This document shows, one piece after another, positions 2,008-22,503 of a DNA stretch of 39,578 nucleotides (its first letter is position 1; each line of letters starts with the position of its first letter). The translations under genes and the position numbers were made by a program. This DNA comes from Escherichia phage mEp234. Under the pieces are notes generated by a model that did no database searches, was not told the DNA's origin, and worked only from the letters and a program-made list of their open reading frames with translations. The stretch is taken from sequence record NC_019715.1; one strand, written 5' to 3'.

Positions 2008-3281
2008 TGGAAGAACCTAAATACACGATTGACCTGCGAACCAATAACGGCTGGTGGGCAAGGCTGCAGTCCTGGTTTGTCGGCGGGCGTTTAGTCACCC
2101 CAAATCAGGGCTCACAGACGGGGCCTGTTTCGGCCCACGGACACCTGGGCGATTCATCCATTAACGATGAACGGATACTGCAAATTTCGACTGTGTGGCG
2201 CTGCGTGAGCCTGATTTCAACGCTCACGGCATGCTTACCGCTTGATGTCTTCGAAACAGACCAGAATGACAACCGTAAAAAAGTGGATTTGAGCAATCCA
2301 CTGGCGCGACTGCTGCGCTACTCACCGAATCAGTACATGACCGCCCAAGAATTCAGGGAGGCCATGACGATGCAGCTCTGTTTCTACGGTAACGCATATG
2401 CACTTGTGGACCGCAACAGCGCAGGTGACGTGATCAGCCTTCTCCCGCTTCAGTCTGCCAATATGGATGTGAAGCTCGTCGGAAAAAAAGTGGTTTATCG
2501 CTATCAACGCGACAGCGAATACGCCGACTTTTCGCAGAAAGAGATTTTTCACCTTAAAGGCTTCGGATTCACCGGGCTTGTAGGCCTGTCACCCATTGCT
2601 TTTGCCTGTAAATCGGCAGGTGTGGCAGTTGCGATGGAGGACCAGCAGCGAGATTTCTTTGCCAACGGCGCCAAGTCTCCGCAAATCCTCTCAACTGGCG
2701 AAAAAGTGCTAACTGAACAGCAGCGCTCCCAGGTCGAAGAGAACTTCAAAGAGATCGCCGGCGGCCCGGTAAAAAAACGCCTCTGGATTCTGGAAGCGGG
2801 TTTTTCTACATCGGCAATTGGCGTAACTCCGCAGGATGCCGAAATGATGGCGTCCCGAAAATTTCAGGTAAGTGAACTGGCGCGATTCTTTGGCGTACCG
2901 CCTCACCTTGTCGGCGACGTCGAGAAATCAACGAGCTGGGGATCGGGCATCGAGCAGCAGAATCTCGGCTTCCTGCAGTACACCCTGCAGCCCTATATCT
3001 CCAGGTGGGAAAACAGCATTCAGCGGTGGCTTATTCCTGCTAAGGATGTTGGCCGCATTCATGCTGAGCACAACCTCGACGGCCTGCTGAGGGGCGATTC
3101 GGCATCCCGCGCTGCCTTTATGAAGGCAATGGGAGAGGCAGGGCTACGCACCATCAACGAGATGCGACGAACGGACAACCTCCCGCCATTGCCGGGTGGC
3201 GATGTGGCAATGCGCCAGTCGCAATACGTGCCGATCACCGATTTAGGAACCAACAAAGAGCCCCGTAATAACGGGGCTTAA
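2007..3281 (+). CDS. portal protein (HK97 family)
   Basis: 424 aa from ATG 2007, which overlaps the TerL stop (TGATG); track ORF starts at GTG 2004. Position after TerL. Confidence 0.85.
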   Translation: MEEPKYTIDLRTNNGWWARLQSWFVGGRLVTPNQGSQTGPVSAHGHLGDSSINDERILQISTVWRCVSLISTLTACLPLDVFETDQNDNRKKVDLSNPLARLLRYSPNQYMTAQEFREAMTMQLCFYGNAYALVDRNSAGDVISLLPLQSANMDVKLVGKKVVYRYQRDSEYADFSQKEIFHLKGFGFTGLVGLSPIAFACKSAGVAVAMEDQQRDFFANGAKSPQILSTGEKVLTEQQRSQVEENFKEIAGGPVKKRLWILEAGFSTSAIGVTPQDAEMMASRKFQVSELARFFGVPPHLVGDVEKSTSWGSGIEQQNLGFLQYTLQPYISRWENSIQRWLIPAKDVGRIHAEHNLDGLLRGDSASRAAFMKAMGEAGLRTINEMRRTDNLPPLPGGDVAMRQSQYVPITDLGTNKEPRNNGA

Positions 3282-13506: not shown

Positions 13507-13731
13507 ATGTATACAGTTGGGTTTGGTTGGATCTTCGTCGGTATTTTTATTGGGTTAATTCTCTGGTTTTTCATCAACCGCGCCAGCGTCAGAGCGAACA
13601 GGCAGGTTGAATTACTTGAGTCTATCGACCAGAAATTATCAAAAATAGTAGATCCAAACTTCGAGGCAAATAACAAAGACCAGTCGAAAGAAAACTACCT
13701 TGAAGAAGCAAGGAAAAAAGCTGGGCTTTGA
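13507..13731 (+). CDS. small single-pass membrane protein, paralogue of the gp15/YebO-like gene
   Basis: 74 aa; SD AAGGAG; TM helix then INRASVRANRQVELLESI, the same architecture as the 8154-8342 protein; AT-rich; own hairpin/U-tract follows. Confidence 0.5.
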   Translation: MYTVGFGWIFVGIFIGLILWFFINRASVRANRQVELLESIDQKLSKIVDPNFEANNKDQSKENYLEEARKKAGL

Positions 13732-14441: not shown

Positions 14442-17400
14442 ATGGCTACAGATAAAGTGTTAAAAGGCCGCAAGGGCGGCAGCTCAAGTTCCCGAACCCC
14501 TACCGAACAGCCTGATGATCTGCAATCTGTAGCGAAGGCAAAGATCCTCGTTGCGCTTGGGGAAGGGGAGTTTGCTGGACAGCTCACCGGGAAGGATATC
14601 TACCTGGACGGAACAGCGCTGGAGAATGCTGACGGCTCCCAAAACTTCAGCGGGGTAACGTGGGAGTTTCGCGCGGGAACGCAGGCGCAAAAATATATTC
14701 AGGGTATTCCCGGTACCGAAAACGAGATCAGCGTAGGAACTGAGGTATCAAGTGCCACAGCCTGGACGCGCACGTTTACCAATACGCAGCTTTCAGCAGT
14801 TCGCCTGCGTCTTAAATGGCCCTCGCTTTTCAAACAGGAAGACGACGGCGATCTGGTGGGTTACTCGGTCAATTATGCGATTGACCTGCAGACGGACGGC
14901 GGCACATGGCAGACGGTACTCAATACCAGCGTGACCGGCAAAACGACGTCTGGTTATGAGCGCAGCCACCGTATCGATTTACCGCAGGCTGGCAGCACAT
15001 GGACAATACGTCTGCGTAAGATTACCTCTGACGCCAACAGCGCGAAGATCGGCGACACGATGATGCTGCAGAGCTTCACCGAGGTGATTGATGCCAAACT
15101 GCGCTACCCGAACACCGCGCTGCTCTACGTCGAATTCGACTCAAGCCAGTTCAACGGCTCTATTCCTCAAATTTCATGCGAACCGCGCGGCCGCGTTATC
15201 CGCGTTCCAGATACCTACGACCCTGAAACCCGCACTTATAGCGGTACATGGACCGGTGCGTTTAAGTGGGCATGGACGGATAACCCTGCGTGGATTTTTT
15301 ACGACCTGGTTGTTTCTGACCGGTTTGGCCTCGGGCACCGTTTGACCGCTGCGAATATTGATAAATGGACTCTTTATCAGGTTGCTCAGTATTGTGATCA
15401 GATGGTACCAGACGGCAAAGGGGGCAACGGTACAGAACCACGCTATACCTGCAACGTGTACATTCAGGACCGGAACGACGCCTACACAGTCCTGCGTGAT
15501 TTTGCCGCTATCTTCCGTGGCATGACCTACTGGGGCGGGGATCAGATTGTGGCCCTGGCTGACATGCCGCGCGATGTTGATTACAGCTATACGCGCGCTA
15601 ACGTTGTTGGCGGTCGCTTCACCTATTCGAGCAGCACCACGAAAAGCCGCTACACCACAGCGCTGGTTTCATGGTCAGATCCGGGTAACGCTTATGCCGA
15701 CGCAATGGAGCCGGTATTTGAGCAGGCGCTGGTGGCGCGATACGGCTTCAATCAGCTGGAAATGACAGCCATCGGCTGCACCAGGCAGTCAGAGGCGAAC
15801 CGAAAGGGGCGCTGGGGTATTCTCACCAACAACAAGGATCGCGTTGTTTCGTTTGATGTCGGGCTGGACGGAAACATTCCGCAGCCGGGCTACATCATCG
15901 CCGTGGCAGACGAGCTGCTTTCCGGAAAGGTTATGGGCGGCCGCATCAGCGCCGTTAACGGTCGCGTTATCAAACTTGACCGCGTAGCTGATGCAGCACC
16001 AGGTGATCGCCTTATTCTCAACCTGCCTTCCGGAGCGTCGCAGAGCAGGACCATTCAGGCCGTGAACGGGGAATCAGTCACAGTCACCACGGCATACAGT
16101 GAGACGCCACAGGCCGAAGCTGTTTGGGTTGTTGAATCTGACGAGCTTTACGCGCAGCAGTATCGTGTTGTCAGCGTCTCCGACAACGGTGATGGCACTT
16201 TCTCAATCACCGGCGCATGGCACGACCCGGATAAATATGCCCGCATCGATACCGGAGCCATCATTGACCAGCGGCCGGTGAGCGTGATCCCGCCTGGTAA
16301 CCAGTCGCCGCCTGCGAACATCGTGATCAGCTCGTTTTCCGTGGTGCAGCAAAATATCAGCGTCGAAACGATGCGCGTGAGCTGGGACCAGGCGCAGAAC
16401 GCTATCGCCTATGAAGCGCAATGGCGCCGCAACGACGGGAACTGGGTTAACGTGCCGCGCACCTCCACCACGTCATTCGACGTCCCGGGGATTTATGCCG
16501 GGCGCTACCTGGTGCGGGTGCGCGCAATCAATGCCGCAGAAATTTCATCCGGATGGGGCTATTCAGAAGAGAAAACGCTGACGGGTAAAGTGGGCAATCC
16601 ACCGAAGCCGGTTGGCTTCATCGCTTCTGAAAATGTGGTTTTCGGCATCGAGCTGAACTGGGGATTCCCGGCGAATACCGACGACACGCTGAAGACGGAA
16701 ATTCAGTACAGCCTGACCGGAACCGAGGACGATGCGATGCTGCTGGCCGATGTGCCTTATCCGCAGCGCAAATATCAGCAGATGGGCCTCAAGGCTGGGC
16801 AGATTTTCTGGTACCGCGCTCAGCTGGTGGACCGCAGCGGCAACGAATCAGGGTACACAGAATGGGTGCGAGGACAGGCCAGCATCGATGTTTCCGACAT
16901 CACAGATGTGATCCTGGAGGACATGAAAGGCTCCGATACGTTCAAAGACCTGATCGAGAACGCTGTGGACAGCAATGAAAAAATTGCTGGCATGGCTGAC
17001 GAAATCAAAAACCATGCCGACGAACTCGAGCAGCAGGCGAAAGACATCCAGGAAAACGCTGACGGGCTGGCCCAGGCCGAAGTGAAGATCGACGAGATTT
17101 CTGTGTCGATGGATGGCATGACGGGAGGCGTGAAGAACTCGGCAATCGCGATTATCCAGAATGGGCTGGCGCAGGTTGTCAGTCGTCGTTCCCAGACCGC
17201 GACAAACGCAGGGAACAGCGCCAGCATTGACCGTATCGACACGACCATAGCCGACACCAGCTCGGCGGTTGCTCGCGCGCTGGTGACGCTGGATGCTTCA
17301 GCTGGTGGGAATATCTCCAACTCTACCGATCTCACTGAAACTCTGGCCGATTTCACGCAGGCATCGGCGACAAAAATTAACACCCTGAATGTTAAATCTG

Positions 17401-17897
17401 GCGAAAACAGTGCCGCGATAAATGTCAACGCACAGGCTATCGCAGATGTAAACGGTAACCTAAGTGCGATGTACAACATCAAGGTTGGTGTCTCCAGCAA
17501 TGGACAGTATTACGCCGCGGGGATGGGTATCGGCGTGGAGAATACGCCATCCGGCATGCAGTCGCAGGTTATCTTCCTGGCTGATCGCTTCGCCGTCACC
17601 ACGGCGGCCGGAAATAGCGTGGCTTTGCCGTTCGTGATCCAGAACGGGCAGACATTCATCCGGGCCAGTTTCATCCAGGACGGCACTATCAGCAACGCAA
17701 AGATTGGTAATTTTATCCAGTCGAACAATTATGTTGCTGGTTCTGCTGGCTGGAAGCTTGATAAAGGGGGGACGTTTGAGAACTACGGTTCGACTGCTGG
17801 TGAGGGAGCCATGAAACTGACAAATCAGACGATCAGCGTCAAAGATGGCAGTAATGTTCTTAGGGTGCAGGTTGGCCGATTAACGGGAGTATTCTGA
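14442..17897 (+). CDS. host specificity protein J (central tail fibre / tip attachment)
   Basis: 1151 aa; lambda gpJ-like size and position after I. Confidence 0.9.
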   Translation: MATDKVLKGRKGGSSSSRTPTEQPDDLQSVAKAKILVALGEGEFAGQLTGKDIYLDGTALENADGSQNFSGVTWEFRAGTQAQKYIQGIPGTENEISVGTEVSSATAWTRTFTNTQLSAVRLRLKWPSLFKQEDDGDLVGYSVNYAIDLQTDGGTWQTVLNTSVTGKTTSGYERSHRIDLPQAGSTWTIRLRKITSDANSAKIGDTMMLQSFTEVIDAKLRYPNTALLYVEFDSSQFNGSIPQISCEPRGRVIRVPDTYDPETRTYSGTWTGAFKWAWTDNPAWIFYDLVVSDRFGLGHRLTAANIDKWTLYQVAQYCDQMVPDGKGGNGTEPRYTCNVYIQDRNDAYTVLRDFAAIFRGMTYWGGDQIVALADMPRDVDYSYTRANVVGGRFTYSSSTTKSRYTTALVSWSDPGNAYADAMEPVFEQALVARYGFNQLEMTAIGCTRQSEANRKGRWGILTNNKDRVVSFDVGLDGNIPQPGYIIAVADELLSGKVMGGRISAVNGRVIKLDRVADAAPGDRLILNLPSGASQSRTIQAVNGESVTVTTAYSETPQAEAVWVVESDELYAQQYRVVSVSDNGDGTFSITGAWHDPDKYARIDTGAIIDQRPVSVIPPGNQSPPANIVISSFSVVQQNISVETMRVSWDQAQNAIAYEAQWRRNDGNWVNVPRTSTTSFDVPGIYAGRYLVRVRAINAAEISSGWGYSEEKTLTGKVGNPPKPVGFIASENVVFGIELNWGFPANTDDTLKTEIQYSLTGTEDDAMLLADVPYPQRKYQQMGLKAGQIFWYRAQLVDRSGNESGYTEWVRGQASIDVSDITDVILEDMKGSDTFKDLIENAVDSNEKIAGMADEIKNHADELEQQAKDIQENADGLAQAEVKIDEISVSMDGMTGGVKNSAIAIIQNGLAQVVSRRSQTATNAGNSASIDRIDTTIADTSSAVARALVTLDASAGGNISNSTDLTETLADFTQASATKINTLNVKSGENSAAINVNAQAIADVNGNLSAMYNIKVGVSSNGQYYAAGMGIGVENTPSGMQSQVIFLADRFAVTTAAGNSVALPFVIQNGQTFIRASFIQDGTISNAKIGNFIQSNNYVAGSAGWKLDKGGTFENYGSTAGEGAMKLTNQTISVKDGSNVLRVQVGRLTGVF

Positions 17898-17898
17898 A

Positions 17899-18201
17899 AT
17901 GGCTTATGGAATACAGACCTGGGATGCTTCAGGAAAACCCAACAACTATGGCATCAAACCCGTTTCCGTCGTTGGGCGAATACAGCTGGCTGCCGGGCAA
18001 ACCTCCGGCAGCTGGTCTTTTACGGTGCCCTCAGGAATGAAAGTTGGTTTTGTTCTTTCACTTGATGAAGGAGGTAACAGCGTAGGGCGGCGCATTGTCG
18101 CGTCAGGGAGCACAATAACCGTAAGCGCTGCATCTTCTGTAGGTCTGGGTAATTATCCGGCCTCAAAGTGTGAAGTGGTCGTTTTCATGGAGAAAGCATA
18201 A
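17899..18201 (+). CDS. hypothetical protein downstream of J
   Basis: 100 aa, ATG 2 nt after the J stop; N-terminal motif GIQTWDASGK recurs in the next protein. Confidence 0.5.
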   Translation: MAYGIQTWDASGKPNNYGIKPVSVVGRIQLAAGQTSGSWSFTVPSGMKVGFVLSLDEGGNSVGRRIVASGSTITVSAASSVGLGNYPASKCEVVVFMEKA

Positions 18202-18839
18202 TGGCCGAATTTGGCGCGATGATATTAATGGACAACGGGAACCCATTTGTAACGCCCCAGTCAACGCCTTTTTGTCTTTACGGCAAGTACACTTTCAACT
18301 CCTCTGCTAATGGCAGTTCGCAGCAGGTTGCTCAGAATATTGCATTAAATGCTGACTACCCTGTGATGGTATTTATCAGGACCACAAATACCGCCCAGCC
18401 CACGCCAGTAATATCTTACCGGAACGGCGGAAATATATATGTCGCGGGGGTTAATCCCTATAACCAGAGCTTCACGTTAACCGCATATATTTTTGCCATA
18501 TTTCCCCAGACGTTACCGAAATGGGGGATGGCCATCTGGGATTCGAGCGGGAAGCTGGTACTCACTAATGAGTCCCGCGTGCTGTCAGACTTGCAGACAA
18601 TCGGAACGCCTGGAGCAAACGGCGGGATTAACATTGACCAGACGCTTGATGGTTCATGGGCAGTGGCTCCATCAAGGCTGGGGCAAGTGAACAGAAACGA
18701 CGCTTACTCATCTTGTAGGTATTCAGGCACAAGTACAAGAATAAACGCCGGTACAGCCGCAAATACACCTGGCGGTGCTGGAGGGGTGATAAATAATGGA
18801 ATTATCCTGACAGCAATTAAAACAGACGCCTATGATTGA
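18201..18839 (+). CDS. hypothetical protein (possible tail-tip accessory)
   Basis: 212 aa, start overlaps the upstream stop (TAATG); contains AIWDSSGK, related to the N-terminus of the preceding protein; Gly/Asn/Thr-rich. Confidence 0.5.
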   Translation: MAEFGAMILMDNGNPFVTPQSTPFCLYGKYTFNSSANGSSQQVAQNIALNADYPVMVFIRTTNTAQPTPVISYRNGGNIYVAGVNPYNQSFTLTAYIFAIFPQTLPKWGMAIWDSSGKLVLTNESRVLSDLQTIGTPGANGGINIDQTLDGSWAVAPSRLGQVNRNDAYSSCRYSGTSTRINAGTAANTPGGAGGVINNGIILTAIKTDAYD

Positions 18840-18946
18840 TTGTTTTGAGCGATCAATAACAAATAATTTATCTATCTAATCAATTATATCCATCGATTAT
18901 GTATTGGTATCTTCGAAGCTACTGAATACCTCTGGATACTATCAAA

Positions 18947-19180
18947 ATGAAAAGGCTAATTATCTGCATAGCGGGCGCTTTAATGCTGTCTGGTTGCGCT
19001 GGTGTACTTGAGAAACAGAAACCGATTTGCAGCGGCACGGCATATATGGGTGGCCATGAGAATACCGTTATGATTTACGCCGTTCGAAAGCAAAACAACC
19101 AGACGCAATACCGGGCCGGATATCCCTTTAACTGGCGCTGGGTAAGTGCGAACACATTCACAAGCACGACATGTAAATAA
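18947..19180 (+). CDS. small lipoprotein (Cor-like superinfection-exclusion candidate)
   Basis: 77 aa; signal peptide with lipobox LSGC; AT-rich upstream region; sits between J and the side tail fibre, where lambdoid phages carry cor/lom-type genes. Confidence 0.5.
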   Translation: MKRLIICIAGALMLSGCAGVLEKQKPICSGTAYMGGHENTVMIYAVRKQNNQTQYRAGYPFNWRWVSANTFTSTTCK

Positions 19181-19197
19181 CTCATGATTTTCAATGC

Positions 19198-19224
19198 AAA
19201 CCTCGCCTCGGCGGGGTTTTTTAT
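19198..19224 (+). terminator. Rho-independent terminator after lipoprotein gene
   Basis: CCTCGC-CTCG-GCGGGG (one G:U) followed by TTTTTTATT; SD GGAG and ATG 19239 follow. Confidence 0.5.
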
Positions 19225-19238
19225 TGCCTGGAGAAAAT

Positions 19239-20507
19239 ATGCTTTATAACACTGGAACCATCGCCATTAACGGAAACAGCGCCACCGGCACGGGCACGAA
19301 CTGGACGGCAACCGCCAGCCAGGTTCGCGCTGGCCAGACGATTATCGTGATGTCTAACCCGGTGCAGCTGTTCCAGATTTCATCCGTGAACAGCGCCACG
19401 TCAATGACGGTTACGCCAGCTGCATCACCGGCGCTGAGCGGCCAGAAGTACGGCATTCTGGTATCAGACAATATCTCGGTTGATGGGCTGGCGCTGGCCA
19501 TGTCGCAGCTTATCAAGGAGTATGACGAGAATATTGGTGCGTGGGAGACGTTCGCCACAACCTCAGCCAACCAGAACATTACCGTTACGATCAATGGCAC
19601 CAGTTTATCAATCCCGGCTCTTGGGAAATTACTGCAGAAGGGGAGCAACGGAGCTTTGCCGGTTAATCAAGGTGGTACCGGCGCAACGAATGCCGCAGAC
19701 GCTCGCACAAACCTTGGTCTGGGAAGTGCGGCGACAAAAAACACAGGAGCGTCCTTCGGCGATGTAATGACAGTGGGGGCTTTTGGGCTGGGAAGCGTTG
19801 CGGACGGGTACTACTACGGTGCGCCAACGGGGTTTTACGGCAGCCCTCCGGATAACCCAAGCAGTGGCATTGGGGTAGCAACAATAAAGAGCGTTGTGGG
19901 TGGATATTCAACAGATTTATCCATGACCCTTGCATCCACAGCCCGCCTTTTTCTGAGAAATATCGGACCTGGTGGCGGCGGTCTATGGGCAGAATTTTAC
20001 AGCAACAGAAATACTACAACAGCTGCAGACGGAACCCTGAAAGTGGCATCCCCCATTGTTAAAATACTTCACGATGGTCGGCATGAAAACAATGATGAAT
20101 CTTATGGCTGCACAGTTACCAGGCTCGGGGTTGGTGAATATCTCATTGAAGGATGTACGGGGCTCAATTCTGATGCAGCCTGGGGTGGTATCGATGGCGG
20201 CTTTGACATCCCCAAAGATCGAAACAGGCAACCACTGATATGGCTGGACTATGAGATCAACGCTGACGGTTCGGTGCTGGTAAAAACCTATCATCGTACC
20301 CATCCTGACGCTCCAGTTTTTGCACGTAACGAGCGGGACGGATACGCCAGTGGTGACCCGATTGATATTCCTGCCGACCAGTTCGTGTCAGTACGTGTAG
20401 AGATGCCACGCGACAGTATCTGGCACCAGAAACAGAAGGAGATGCGGGAAGTGATGGAGGACGCTGAGCGTGGGCGCCAGCAAAATCAGCAGAATACCCA
20501 GTCGTAA
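19239..20507 (+). CDS. side tail fibre protein
   Basis: 422 aa from ATG 19239 (SD GGAG); N-terminus MLYNTGTIAINGNSATGTGTNW and PVNQGGTGATNAADARTNLGL are typical tail-fibre motifs. Track ORF 19194 starts inside the terminator. Confidence 0.75.
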   Translation: MLYNTGTIAINGNSATGTGTNWTATASQVRAGQTIIVMSNPVQLFQISSVNSATSMTVTPAASPALSGQKYGILVSDNISVDGLALAMSQLIKEYDENIGAWETFATTSANQNITVTINGTSLSIPALGKLLQKGSNGALPVNQGGTGATNAADARTNLGLGSAATKNTGASFGDVMTVGAFGLGSVADGYYYGAPTGFYGSPPDNPSSGIGVATIKSVVGGYSTDLSMTLASTARLFLRNIGPGGGGLWAEFYSNRNTTTAADGTLKVASPIVKILHDGRHENNDESYGCTVTRLGVGEYLIEGCTGLNSDAAWGGIDGGFDIPKDRNRQPLIWLDYEINADGSVLVKTYHRTHPDAPVFARNERDGYASGDPIDIPADQFVSVRVEMPRDSIWHQKQKEMREVMEDAERGRQQNQQNTQS

Positions 20508-21020
20508 AAATTATAACTGCCGCAACCATGCCGTATGCAAGAGCATGATTGCGGCCGACTAGCGAACGTTCGATAGTGCGAGTATTGAATGATTTCAAGC
20601 CGTTACCGATTTTACTATGTTTTCAGTAGAACGCTTAGACAAAACTGAGGCGCACAAAGCTTTGCACTGGATTGCAAGACTTTGTTCTATTCGATAGTTT
20701 AAGGTCGCTCACTCTACCTTTTCATCAAGCCAGTCCGCCCACCACAGCATCATTTCTCTGCGCTTAATGTAGCGGATGCCTCACTATCACATAGTGATGG
20801 TTCATTACTGCTTTGTAGAATGGATAGAGAACTGAGGATAAAAAGATATCCCAAAACCCCAAAATCTCATCTTTAGGATTTGCAGAAAGGGAGGCGTGAA
20901 CAGATACCTGCGCATGAAGACGGAACTAGTCCAGATGTGATATTTGTGGTGATCACATACATCATCAACGATGCTCGTTATGGTGAGTTTGATGACTACC
21001 CGCTGAAGTGAAAATAGTGT

Positions 21021-21316
21021 TGTGTACCAAATTGCGTACCAAACTAAAATCACAAATCATGAAACCCTTGTTCATGGCGGTTCTCAGGGGTATTGCGCGT
21101 AATCGTGAAAGAGGAAGGTAGGTTGTTTATCTGTGTCTGTCATTGTCTAGCATTGTCCACTGTAGTTAATTAACTGTCTGTTATAACTCGAAAAACAACC
21201 ATTTTTTCACCTGAGTATGTCTACTAACGTCAAATATAGTTGTTTACTGTGCGCTGTTGTCCATGTGATATTGTGTACCAGATGTGTACCAAACCATTAT
21301 TTCTGAGCGTACCAAA
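21021..21316. other. candidate attP region with integrase arm-type direct repeats
   Basis: Five same-orientation copies of GTACCA(A/G)A at 21024-21031, 21036-21043, 21275-21282, 21286-21293 and 21309-21316, flanking a ~230-bp AT-rich interval immediately upstream of int. Confidence 0.45.
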
Positions 21317-21324
21317 TATTATTT

Positions 21325-22503
21325 ATGGCTATAAGCGACACAAAACTGCGTACTATTTATGGTAAACCATATTCGGGCCCACAAGAAGTGGCTGATGCCG
21401 ATGGCCTCAGCGTACGAATTTCACCGAAGGGGGTCATCCAGTTCCAGTACCGCTATCGCTGGCATGGCAAGCCTAATCGACTTGGGCTTGGTCGATACCC
21501 ATCCCTGTCTTTGAAGGATGCCAGACAGATCACTGCTGACTTGCGAAAGCTCTATTTCTCAGGAACGGATCCACGCACTTATTTTGAAGAGAAGGTGGAG
21601 AACTCCATGACGGTCGCCCAGTGTCTCGACTACTGGTTCGACAATTACGTCTCTACAACTCTCAGAGAAAAGACCCAGGCACTTTACCGATCAACGGTTA
21701 TGAAGCGCATGCATGACGCCTTCCCTAATCGACCGGCATCTTCTATCACGGTTAAGCAATGGGTTGACCTGCTTACCGAAGAAGAAAAAGATAATCCACG
21801 CCGAGCAAGGCAGGTGCTAAGTCAACTAAGATCAGCAATTAGTTGGTGCATGCGGCGTCAGTTGATAGATAGTTGCGCAATTATGAGCATCCAGCCAAGG
21901 GACTTCGGCTCCCGCGCTGAGGTAGGGGATCGGGTACTGTCGTATCACGAACTGGCTAAGATTTGGCTTGCTATTGAAAGAAGCCGTGCGTCTACGTCAA
22001 ATAAGCTCCTTCATCAGATGCTTATGCTGTGGGGGGCGAGGCTCTCAGAGCTTAGGCTGGCAACAAAGACAGAATTTGACCTGCTGGACAACGTATGGAC
22101 CGTACCGAAAGAGCATAGCAAGATGGGTAATGTTATCCGCCGTCCAATCTTCGAACAAATTAAGCCTTTTCTCGAAAAGGCCATGACAACGTACAATGAT
22201 GTTCTTTTCCCTGGAGAAGACATAAACAAACCGATCAGCATCGCTGCAGCCAACCGATTCGTAAACAGAATAAGGGGAGGGATGGATCTAGGTTACTGGC
22301 GAACACATGATTTCAGAAGAACGCTTGTTACACGTCTGTCCGAGATGAATGTCGAGCCTCATGTTACTGAGCGAATGCTCGGTCATGAACTTGGCGGGAT
22401 AATGTCCGTATACAATAAACACGACTGGATAGAGGCTCAGCGCAAAGCGTATGAGCTTCACGCTGATAAATTGTTCTGGCACATCAGGAGCATTTCTGAT
22501 TAA
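21325..22503 (+). CDS. int: tyrosine integrase (P4-like, N-terminal DUF4102 arm-binding domain)
   Basis: 392 aa; N-terminal LSVRISPKGVIQFQYRYRWHGK; catalytic-region motifs (HDFRRT, MLGHE, SVYNKHDW). Confidence 0.9.
   Translation: MAISDTKLRTIYGKPYSGPQEVADADGLSVRISPKGVIQFQYRYRWHGKPNRLGLGRYPSLSLKDARQITADLRKLYFSGTDPRTYFEEKVENSMTVAQCLDYWFDNYVSTTLREKTQALYRSTVMKRMHDAFPNRPASSITVKQWVDLLTEEEKDNPRRARQVLSQLRSAISWCMRRQLIDSCAIMSIQPRDFGSRAEVGDRVLSYHELAKIWLAIERSRASTSNKLLHQMLMLWGARLSELRLATKTEFDLLDNVWTVPKEHSKMGNVIRRPIFEQIKPFLEKAMTTYNDVLFPGEDINKPISIAAANRFVNRIRGGMDLGYWRTHDFRRTLVTRLSEMNVEPHVTERMLGHELGGIMSVYNKHDWIEAQRKAYELHADKLFWHIRSISD

What the first reader, a model, noticed from the sequence alone, without database searches (positions are those of the whole stretch)
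17899..18839. Two unknown genes downstream of J sharing a WDxSGK motif
The 100-aa and 212-aa proteins are tightly coupled to J (2-nt gap, then TAATG overlap). Both carry a (I/M)xxWD(A/S)SGK motif (GIQTWDASGK; AIWDSSGK), suggesting a duplicated domain. The position corresponds to host-range or exclusion cargo in other lambdoid phages.
Basis: inference. Interest (0 to 1): 0.5.

Follow-up and report, generated by a model that had tools for sequence, protein, structure and literature searches.

The report
Two-part FhuA receptor-binding cap after J
The two small genes after the tail-tip gene J are the long-known HK022 gp25/gp26 pair, which most likely form the piece at the very tip of the phage tail that grips the bacterial FhuA protein; this idea is already published but has not been proven by experiment.

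Summary
ORF-A (17899-18201, 100 aa) and ORF-B (18201-18839, 212 aa) follow J with a 1-nt gap (not 2) and a TAATG overlap, and both carry the W-D-x-S-G-K motif.

The genes are not new. They are 100% identical to genes of HK446, HK106, mEpX1/2 and mEp234, and 99.8% identical to HK022 gp25/gp26. Homologues sit after J in phi80, T1 (ST32/ST31), N15 and Dhillonvirus. Cor, the FhuA-blocking exclusion lipoprotein, lies next door in 80 of 80 close loci.

Several papers already call this a candidate receptor-binding (RBP) locus. One paper suggests an exclusion role instead.

What I add:
- The motif is a conserved hairpin present three times (A 2-17, B 3-18, B 107-122).
- A is homologous to the first half of B.
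- The three Oekolampad RBP segments that are disordered and face the tail correspond to these hairpins.

Best reading: A plus B form a split, three-repeat, monomeric FhuA-binding cap on the J trimer. They are not cargo and not exclusion genes.

The feature is ordinary and already catalogued. The architecture link appears to be new.

The parts
14442..17897 (+). gpJ-like central tail fibre / tip protein (1151 aa). This is the proposed docking partner.
   Evidence: Pfam FNIII-A_GpJ (E 1.6e-50), Phage_Tail_Tip (E 3.7e-48, residues 993-1126) and Phage-tail_3; PHROG 31 'central tail fiber J'. Its last ~200 residues are homologous to the J ends of FhuA-, YncD- and LptD-type phages. The FhuA-type J proteins end in ..RVQ(I/V)GR(L/I)TGx(W/F); the YncD- and LptD-type ends are shorter (..RVxxG..(F/W)).
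17899..18201 (+). ORF-A, 100 aa (HK022 gp25 / T1 ST32 / N15 gp22 family). One repeat unit: N-terminal hairpin plus beta-sandwich.
17902..17949 (+). Hairpin motif copy 1 (A residues 2-17, AYGIQTWDASGKPNNY)
   Evidence: M1, G4, W8, G12, N16 and G18 are invariant across relatives 39-93% identical. pLDDT is low despite the conservation.
18201..18839 (+). ORF-B, 212 aa (HK022 gp26 / T1 ST31 / N15 gp23 family). Two repeat units. Candidate FhuA-binding subunit.
18207..18254 (+). Hairpin motif copy 2 (B residues 3-18, EFGAMILMDNGNPFVT)
   Evidence: Conserved in 90 cluster representatives. Aligns in register with copy 3, 90.7%. pLDDT 55-63.
18519..18566 (+). Hairpin motif copy 3 (B residues 107-122, KWGMAIWDSSGKLVLT)
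   Evidence: Most conserved stretch of the B family: G109 0.99, G117 0.87, L128 0.94. pLDDT 49-66. Aligns with the third tail-proximal segment of the Oekolampad RBP.
18807..18836 (+). Promoter-like site for cor, inside the 3' end of ORF-B
   Evidence: CTGACA-18-TATGAT, 10 of 12 matches. This is a consensus match only.
18947..19180 (+). cor, the FhuA-directed superinfection-exclusion lipoprotein (77 aa)
   Evidence: NCBIfam NF047972 'phage exclusion lipoprotein Cor', E 4.2e-41. PHROG 1119. Lipoprotein signal MKRLIICIAGALMLSGC. Present after B in 80 of 80 related loci.
19198..19229 (+). Terminator-like hairpin plus T-run just after cor
   Evidence: Nine-pair stem followed by TTTTATTG. Together with the promoter-like site it brackets cor as a separate unit.
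19194..20507 (+). Side tail fibre (stf-like). The likely true start is ATG 19239.
   Evidence: PHROG 1591, E 3e-180, aligned from residue 15. Pfam Phage_tail_C_2, E 2e-58. This fibre varies between otherwise identical J-A-B-cor modules.

Best explanation
ORF-A and ORF-B are late structural genes. Their products together form the terminal receptor-binding module of this HK022-like lambdoid phage: a monomeric cap on the tip of the trimeric J fibre that binds the monomeric outer-membrane transporter FhuA. The neighbouring cor gene is the matching exclusion factor, which blocks FhuA from inside the cell.

The proposed building plan is three repeat units. Each unit is a conserved roughly 16-20-residue hairpin, (Y/W)G-h-x-h-(W)-(D/N)-x-x-G-x-h-h-h, followed by a roughly 80-residue beta-sandwich. 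A supplies one unit and B supplies two.

The three hairpins are proposed to assemble into the tail-proximal element that docks on the three-fold J tip. The variable sandwich loops would face FhuA. In single-chain relatives (DUF6453, for example the LptD-binding RBP of Oekolampad) all three units are in one polypeptide; here the protein is split 1+2.

Shown:
- gene order and translational coupling;
- homology to the FhuA-type locus of phages reported to depend on FhuA;
- three motif copies;
- homology of A to the first half of B;
- relatedness of B to the solved RBP in fold and profile;
- absence of export signals.

Inferred:
- presence in the virion;
- FhuA binding;
- 1:1 stoichiometry;
- the hairpins being the J-docking element.
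For: Position and linkage
- J, A, B and cor lie in this order, with the A stop overlapping the B start, in 80 of 80 IMG/VR loci.
- The A+B pair follows J in T1, Webervirus, Motto, Midgardsormr38, PaulSarasin, PeterMerian, SECphi18 and SRT8.

Receptor correlation
- B homologues occur in phi80 (81.7%), T1 (50%), JLBYU60 and Teewinot (56%). All of these are reported to depend on FhuA.
- PMC13164509, citing Wietzorrek 2006, notes the cassette in T1, HK022, N15, ES18 and phi80, all FhuA users.
- BASEL and a 2026 preprint match alleles of this locus to receptor specificity.

Relation to a proven RBP
- hhalign of B against a diverse DUF6453 profile gives 86.5%, E 4.6e-6, over 98 columns. With the first, less diverse Oekolampad-family profile the score was 32.3 against a shuffle maximum of 22.3, 0 of 60.

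Repeat plan
- A against the first half of B: 93%. The two halves of B against each other: 90.7%.

Hairpins are probably not the receptor face
- They are the best-conserved segments (commonest-residue frequency 0.47-0.50, against 0.26-0.33 for the sandwiches), yet have low pLDDT in single-chain models.
- The same motif, at the same relative positions, occurs in the YncD-type pair of IsaakIselin (101 + 217 aa) and in the pair of phiA2-1, a phage isolated on a fhuA-deleted host.
- The three Oekolampad RBP segments missing from the cryo-EM density and described as tail-proximal (1-25, 113-142, 206-234) are exactly its three hairpin-like segments.
- The J C-termini are homologous across these locus types.
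- PMC13035648 argues that the most conserved RBP surfaces mediate assembly into the tail.

Not membrane or exclusion proteins
- No signal peptide or membrane segment: maximum hydropathy 1.3, against 2.4 for Cor. No PADLOC hit.

Published modelling
- AF2-Multimer places the B homologue as a monomer on the J trimer and on FhuA.
Against: - There is no experimental evidence here or in the papers I read that A or B is in virions or binds FhuA. The T1 cryo-EM map did not resolve the J C-terminus or anything attached to it.
- The three thirds of DUF6453 do not align with one another by hhalign, and the hairpin HMM does not detect the DUF6453 hairpins. The 'three equivalent units' reading of DUF6453 therefore rests on visual similarity and on the coordinates of the disordered segments.
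- No natural A-B fusion was found among 130 cluster representatives.
- Published modelling treated A as a homotrimer rather than a single third unit, and gave it lower confidence.
- Low pLDDT in the hairpins could simply reflect poor modelling.
- I could not run multimer predictions.
Confidence: 0.62

Rival explanations
1. B alone is the FhuA-binding RBP. A is an accessory: a homotrimeric Ig-like collar or adaptor on J, or an assembly chaperone that is not part of a pseudo-threefold cap.
For: Matusiak et al. 2025 modelled the A homologue as a homotrimer, and AF2-Multimer preferred the B-type monomer as the J terminus and the FhuA partner. The 2026 preprint calls the neighbours of the RBP 'accessory proteins'. 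PMC13164509 reports one Tempevirinae species with B and Cor but without the small protein. A's link to DUF6453 is weak.
Against: A is homologous to the first half of B over 78 columns. A carries the same N-terminal hairpin, and that hairpin is its most conserved part. A+B total 312 aa and the YncD-type pair totals 318 aa, against 321 aa for the single-chain RBP with three hairpin segments. A precedes B in 80 of 80 loci, with stop/start overlap favouring equimolar synthesis.
Confidence: 0.24
2. [quoted passage not shown]
For: PHROG and RefSeq names. Constant adjacency to cor. PMC13164509 proposes a link to exclusion because of that adjacency and a predicted membrane location.
Against: There is no signal peptide, lipobox or hydrophobic segment, unlike Cor. 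Published membrane-affinity estimates for homologues are far below that of Lom. The genes are coupled to J rather than to cor; cor sits on the opposite strand in T1, Motto, PaulSarasin, SECphi18 and SRT8, and is absent in the Webervirus IMGroot, while the A+B pair stays in place. B resembles a solved RBP. No PADLOC hit.
Confidence: 0.06
3. The shared motif is a chance or compositional resemblance, and the two proteins are unrelated hypothetical proteins of no particular function.
For: With low-diversity profiles only 12-13 columns align. Beta-rich proteins rich in G, S, T and N can give spurious matches; the false positive P0343 is an example.
Against: Column-shuffle controls never approach the observed scores: 34-37 against a maximum of 15 for A against B, 0 of 60. 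The motif is the most conserved part of both families. It recurs at the unit boundaries in other J-downstream pairs.
Confidence: 0.03

Closest known systems
HK022 gp25/gp26, N15 gp22/gp23, T1 ST32/ST31, phi80 homologues (PHROG 557 and 425): the 'FhuA-type bona fide RBP locus' of Maffei et al. 2021
   Same: Identical or homologous sequences: 99.8% DNA identity to HK022, and 81.7% (phi80) and 50% (T1) protein identity for B. Same position after J, same A-then-B order, and cor alongside.
   Different: Nothing material. This window simply carries that module in an mEp234/HK446-like lambdoid phage. In T1 the pair is flanked by annotated terminators and cor is on the other strand.
RBP of Dhillonvirus Oekolampad (Bas18), Pfam DUF6453, PDB 9RPT chain C, bound to LptDE
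   Different: One 321-aa chain rather than 100 + 212 aa. Encoded on the opposite strand. Binds LptD, not FhuA. No Pfam DUF6453 hit for A or B. About 13% identity.
YncD-type locus of Drexlerviridae phage IsaakIselin (Bas10) and the GP23/GP24 pair of phiA2-1
   Same: Small protein plus a roughly two-fold larger protein after J. The hairpin motif is at the N-terminus of both proteins and at the midpoint of the larger one. The 217-aa protein aligns with B, 72%, E 3e-5.
   Different: Different receptor (YncD, or unknown but not FhuA). Sandwich domains are not recognisably similar by BLAST. Opposite strand in IsaakIselin. The exclusion candidate is not Cor.
T5 pb5 / Llp
   Same: What it works like: a monomeric RBP on the tip of a trimeric straight fibre, binding FhuA, paired with a periplasmic lipoprotein that blocks FhuA. 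The tail-proximal part is disordered in the receptor complex.
Lambda J C-terminal receptor-binding domain
   Same: Same job at the same place on the virion.
   Different: In lambda the receptor-binding domain is part of J, trimeric, and binds trimeric LamB. Here J ends at the conserved tip, and the binding function is proposed to lie in separate polypeptides.

Membership tests
FhuA-type RBP locus downstream of gpJ (Maffei 2021; PHROG 557 + 425) | Encoded immediately downstream of a gpJ homologue | tested here: met
   1-nt gap after J, then a TAATG overlap. Same layout in 80 of 80 related loci.
FhuA-type RBP locus downstream of gpJ (Maffei 2021; PHROG 557 + 425) | Sequence homology to the locus proteins of phages with reported FhuA dependence | tested here: met
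   PHROG 557 E 2.4e-36 and PHROG 425 E 9.7e-75. For B: phi80 81.7%, T1 50%, JLBYU60 and Teewinot 56%. FhuA dependence of these phages is taken from the literature.
FhuA-type RBP locus downstream of gpJ (Maffei 2021; PHROG 557 + 425) | Cognate superinfection-exclusion lipoprotein adjacent | tested here: met
   Cor, NF047972, E 4.2e-41, at 18947-19180.
FhuA-type RBP locus downstream of gpJ (Maffei 2021; PHROG 557 + 425) | Product is a virion component and binds FhuA | not testable with these tools
   Only published in-silico models exist. The T1 map lacks this region.
Pfam DUF6453 (solved member: Oekolampad RBP, 9RPT_C) | Match to the Pfam model above the gathering score | tested here: not met
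   No DUF6453 hit for A or B even at E up to 10. The Oekolampad RBP hits at 2e-121.
Pfam DUF6453 (solved member: Oekolampad RBP, 9RPT_C) | Shared fold | tested here: met
Pfam DUF6453 (solved member: Oekolampad RBP, 9RPT_C) | Remote sequence homology (profile-profile) | tested here: inconclusive
   B: 86.5%, E 4.6e-6, B 55-164 aligned to Oekolampad 162-264. Shuffle control on the earlier profile: 0 of 60. A: not significant.
Pfam DUF6453 (solved member: Oekolampad RBP, 9RPT_C) | Three units in a single chain of about 320 aa | tested here: not met
   Split into 100 + 212 aa. No fused form among 130 cluster representatives.
Outer-membrane or membrane-associated protein / Cor-type exclusion factor (database names) | Signal peptide, lipobox, membrane segment or beta-barrel | tested here: not met
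   Maximum 15-residue hydropathy is 1.27 (A) and 1.35 (B), against 2.37 for Cor. No basic N-region. The models are soluble beta-sandwiches. No PADLOC hit.
Lambda-J-like Ig receptor-binding domain (proposed for the small protein by Matusiak 2025) | Fold match to the J C-terminal domain | tested here: inconclusive

The most novel reading that the evidence does not exclude
The roughly 100-aa 'accessory' protein and the roughly 212-aa protein are two pieces of one pseudo-threefold receptor-binding protein. It has three hairpin-plus-sandwich units (1+2), and the three conserved hairpins together dock on the three-fold J tip. This would solve the mismatch between a trimeric fibre and a monomeric receptor.

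On this reading, the supposedly unrelated RBP families encoded after gpJ (FhuA-, YncD-, phiA2-1- and LptD/DUF6453-type) are one superfamily built on this plan, either split or fused. The hairpin triad would then be a portable adaptor, so that receptor specificity could be swapped by exchanging the sandwich units.
Probability: 0.42. Interest if true: 0.6.

Novelty: already known. Interest (0 to 1): 0.36.

Why it matters
Which protein of T1, phi80 and HK022-like phages actually grips FhuA has never been shown by experiment, although FhuA (TonA) is among the oldest known phage receptors.

This window carries the standard candidate module. If the 1+2 split-cap reading is right, it tells experimenters three things:
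- co-express A with B, and with the J tip, to obtain a foldable and attachable RBP;
- the hairpins are the residues to mutate to separate tail attachment from receptor binding;
- retargeting these small siphoviruses and lambdoid phages to other outer-membrane proteins should work by swapping whole A+B modules while keeping the hairpins compatible with J.

It also corrects misleading database names ('outer membrane protein', 'membrane associated protein').

Tried and rejected
Searches that found nothing
- Pfam, NCBIfam and PDB sequence searches gave nothing for A or B.
- PADLOC gave nothing.

Comparisons that fell short
- Low-diversity profiles detected only the 12-13-column motif. Domain-level homology appeared only after I built a diverse B alignment from the representative search.
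- A against DUF6453, and the three thirds of DUF6453 against each other, were not significant.
- A motif HMM built from FhuA-type proteins did not detect the DUF6453 hairpins. It gave only E 0.004-0.3 for the YncD-type and phiA2-1 copies, although these were the top non-self hits among 707 ORFs.

Search for fused forms
- I found no natural A-B fusion. P0252 is a J fragment joined to the C-terminal part of B, and P0343 is a repetitive adhesin and a false positive.

An idea from memory, not supported
- The hairpin recalled the QxDxNxVxY hairpins of bulb-type (beta-prism II) lectins. There was no Pfam B_lectin hit. Only one BFVD hit carries that name, at rank 13, E 3.7e-3. I keep this as a lead only.

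Literature
- Searches for virion proteomics of T1-like or HK022-like phages found nothing usable. The Sfin-1 data concern an LptD-type phage and are of doubtful quality.
- Wietzorrek 2006 is not held.
- The 2026 preprint's swap experiments did not include this locus.

Other
- Guessing BASEL accession numbers produced four irrelevant loci (L002, L088, L091, L092), which I reused as decoy sequence.
- Both structure-prediction jobs went on single chains, so I could not model a fused A-B chain or a complex.

Full report
**What is there**

The window is an HK022-like lambdoid coliphage. Positions 17899-18839 are 100% identical to HK446, HK106, mEpX1, mEpX2 and mEp234, and 99.8% identical to HK022. 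A large part of the window matches mEp234 at 100%.

The ORF list and sequence show:
- J at 14442-17897;
- ORF-A at 17899-18201 (100 aa);
- ORF-B at 18201-18839 (212 aa);
- a lipoprotein gene at 18947-19180;
- a tail-fibre gene ending at 20507.

The J/A gap is one base, not two. The TAATG overlap is as described. Both ORFs have a GGAG upstream of the start. In HK022 these are gp24 (J), gp25, gp26, gp27 (cor) and gp28 (stf-like).

**First-pass annotation**

A and B have no Pfam, NCBIfam or PDB sequence match. They fall in PHROG 557 ('outer membrane protein', E 2.4e-36) and PHROG 425 ('membrane associated protein', E 9.7e-75). The next gene is Cor, the FhuA-directed exclusion lipoprotein (NF047972, E 4.2e-41).

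The PHROG names are not supported by the sequences. Neither A nor B has a signal peptide, lipobox or hydrophobic segment, unlike Cor. There is no PADLOC hit.

**The motif**

GIQTWDASGK (A 4-13) and AIWDSSGK (B 111-118) are real. Evidence that the match is more than chance:
- BLASTP of the two proteins finds only this stretch (E 0.018).
- Family profiles align the same 12-13 columns (E 6e-5 to 9e-5).
- In alignments of homologues the motif is the best-conserved part of both proteins.

A third, more divergent copy sits at the N-terminus of B (EFGAMILMDNGNPFVT). Across 90 cluster representatives of the B family, both B copies are conserved with the pattern (Y/W/F)G-h-x-h-x-(D/N)-x-x-G-x-h-h-h. 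The hairpin segments have a mean commonest-residue frequency of 0.47-0.50, against 0.26-0.33 for the rest of the protein.

**Duplication**

With the diverse B profile:
- A aligns to the first half of B over 78 columns (93%, E 3.5e-7);
- the two halves of B align in register over 31 columns (90.7%, E 1.2e-6);
- A aligns to the second hairpin of B (89%).

Sixty column shuffles of the target never exceeded a score of 15, against observed scores of 34-37.

The AF2 models agree. A (mean pLDDT 77.9) and each half of B (mean pLDDT 83.5 for the whole protein) consist of a roughly 20-residue leader followed by seven or eight beta-strands.

**Distribution and linkage**

- The exhaustive representative search finds only 130 clusters for B, nearly all 205-240 aa.
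- tblastn finds B in 348 phage records, including phi80 (81.7%), T1 (50%), JLBYU60 and Teewinot (56%), Hanrivervirus and Klebsiella Webervirus.
- In 80 of 80 IMG/VR loci the order is J, A, B, cor, with the A stop overlapping the B start. The side fibre downstream varies.
- The A+B pair also follows J in T1, IMGroot, Motto, Midgardsormr38, PaulSarasin, PeterMerian, SECphi18 and SRT8. In these, cor may be on the other strand or absent.

**What the literature says**

- The cassette was noted in T1, HK022, N15, ES18 and phi80, all FhuA users (Wietzorrek 2006, as cited in PMC13164509).
- BASEL called such loci 'bona fide RBP loci' whose alleles match the terminal receptor (PMC8594841).
- Matusiak et al. 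2025 modelled the B-type 'hand-like' protein as a monomer capping the J trimer and binding FhuA, and the A-type protein as an Ig-like homotrimer (PMC12309495).
- A 2026 preprint treats the locus proteins as four unrelated RBP families plus accessory proteins.
- PMC13164509 instead suggests a role with Cor in exclusion.
- The T1 cryo-EM study did not resolve the J C-terminus.

The module and the RBP idea are therefore already published. Experimental proof for the FhuA type is lacking.

**Link to a solved RBP**

That RBP is encoded right after a homologous J, next to its own exclusion lipoprotein. It belongs to Pfam DUF6453 (E 2e-121).

Against a diverse DUF6453 profile, B gives 86.5% probability and E 4.6e-6 over 98 columns. 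B 55-164 aligns with Oekolampad 162-264, which places B's second hairpin on the third hairpin-like segment of the Oekolampad RBP. A does not reach significance against DUF6453.

**The hairpins as the tail-proximal element**

The LptDE paper reports that Oekolampad RBP residues 1-25, 113-142 and 206-234 are missing from the density, and that the tail-proximal part is poorly ordered. Those three segments are MGAGILIDYNDGRP....NAGLLVANSTDFTAIS.. and ..GTGITMTNNQNQVTFST... They are hairpin-like leaders at roughly 100-residue spacing.

In my single-chain models the three hairpins of A and B are the low-confidence parts, despite being the most conserved.

The same motif at the same relative positions occurs in other pairs encoded after J:
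- IsaakIselin (YncD type): a 101-aa protein starting MPGLQAWDASGNLVV.., and a 217-aa protein starting MSGFEVRNNAGVVLINS.. with ..GYLDVFDASGNLVWT.. at 103-117.
- phiA2-1, isolated on a fhuA-deleted host: 123-aa and 265-aa proteins.

An HMM built only from the FhuA-type hairpins ranks these as the best non-self hits among 707 ORFs in 167 kb, at E 0.0044, 0.058 and 0.29. Noise starts at E 3.9.

J C-termini are homologous across the FhuA-, YncD- and LptD-type phages. Total lengths are 312 aa (A+B) and 318 aa (IsaakIselin pair), against 321 aa for the single-chain Oekolampad RBP.

A motif that is independent of the receptor, sits at unit boundaries and faces the tail in the solved relative is best explained as the element that attaches the module to J, that holds the pieces together, or both.

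**Mechanism proposed**

A and B are made with J from the late operon. One A and one B assemble through their three hairpins into a pseudo-threefold cap on the J trimer, and the variable sandwich faces bind FhuA.

Cor is bracketed by a promoter-like site at 18807-18836 and a terminator-like hairpin at 19198-19219. It is expressed separately and blocks FhuA.

Virion location, FhuA binding, stoichiometry and the docking role of the hairpins are all inferred.

**Rivals**

- A as a separate trimeric adaptor or chaperone remains quite possible (0.24).
- An exclusion or membrane role is unlikely (0.06).
- A chance motif is effectively excluded (0.03).

**Verdict**

The feature is an already catalogued module, so overall interest is modest (0.36).

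The most novel reading still open is that the 'unrelated' J-downstream RBP families are one three-unit superfamily, and that here the RBP is split into two chains. I give it about 0.42 probability. It would be of moderate to good interest and is directly testable.

Noticed in passing
window 18807-19239: cor looks like a self-contained unit. A promoter-like site (CTGACA-18-TATGAT) lies inside the 3' end of ORF-B, and a nine-pair terminator-like hairpin with a T-run lies at 19198-19229. That hairpin falls inside the long version of the tail-fibre ORF (start 19194), so the fibre probably starts at ATG 19239 (MLYNTG...), where the PHROG alignment begins.
   Followed up: partly
L014, L015, L019, L025 (IMG/VR loci) compared with window 17899-19180: The mosaic boundary falls at the A/B junction. 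In several loci A is 100% identical to the window while B is only 81-82% identical and Cor 79-90%. In SECphi18 and SRT8 the tblastn match to B covers only residues 1-161, which suggests that the C-terminal ~50 residues are highly divergent or exchanged.
   Followed up: partly
L180:3653-4818 (Escherichia phage phiA2-1, isolated on a fhuA-deleted host): A 123-aa plus 265-aa gene pair after J carries the same hairpin motif at both N-termini and at residue ~123 of the larger protein, but otherwise has no BLAST-level similarity to A or B. The receptor is unknown.
   Followed up: partly
L084:2160-2186 and 3194-3220 (phage T1): In T1 the ST32/ST31 pair is flanked by annotated rho-independent terminators and cor is on the opposite strand. 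There the pair is not simply read through from J.
   Followed up: no
window 13507-13731: A 74-aa ORF between the gpK-like and gpI-like genes has a strongly hydrophobic N-terminus (MYTVGFGWIFVGIFIGLILWFFI...). It lies at the position of HK022 gp20, which is annotated as a moron.
   Followed up: no
window 20508-22503: About 800 bp without a long ORF follow the tail-fibre gene, then a 392-aa integrase-like ORF on the + strand (21325-22503). In HK022 the integrase is on the opposite strand after attP, so the integration module differs.
   Followed up: no
P0252, P0106 and P0098 (protein hits): A few database proteins join a J fragment or a minor-tail-protein fragment to the C-terminal part of a B homologue. 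They may be assembly or frameshift artefacts, or rare natural J-RBP fusions.
   Followed up: partly
phage records MG065670.1, MG065648.1 ('Campylobacter phage' A121, A144) and ON843697.1 ('Pseudomonas phage' Motto): These records carry coliphage-type J (all three). Motto also carries an A/B/Cor module 44% identical in B. The stated hosts look doubtful.
   Followed up: no
BFVD hits of the ORF-B model: Twelve uncharacterised 200-275-aa proteins from unrelated phages, including myoviruses and phages of Proteus, Pectobacterium, Acinetobacter, Xanthomonas and Pseudomonas, share the two-domain fold (E 2e-7 to 3e-4, TM 0.40-0.53). The fold may be a widespread tail-tip module.
   Followed up: no
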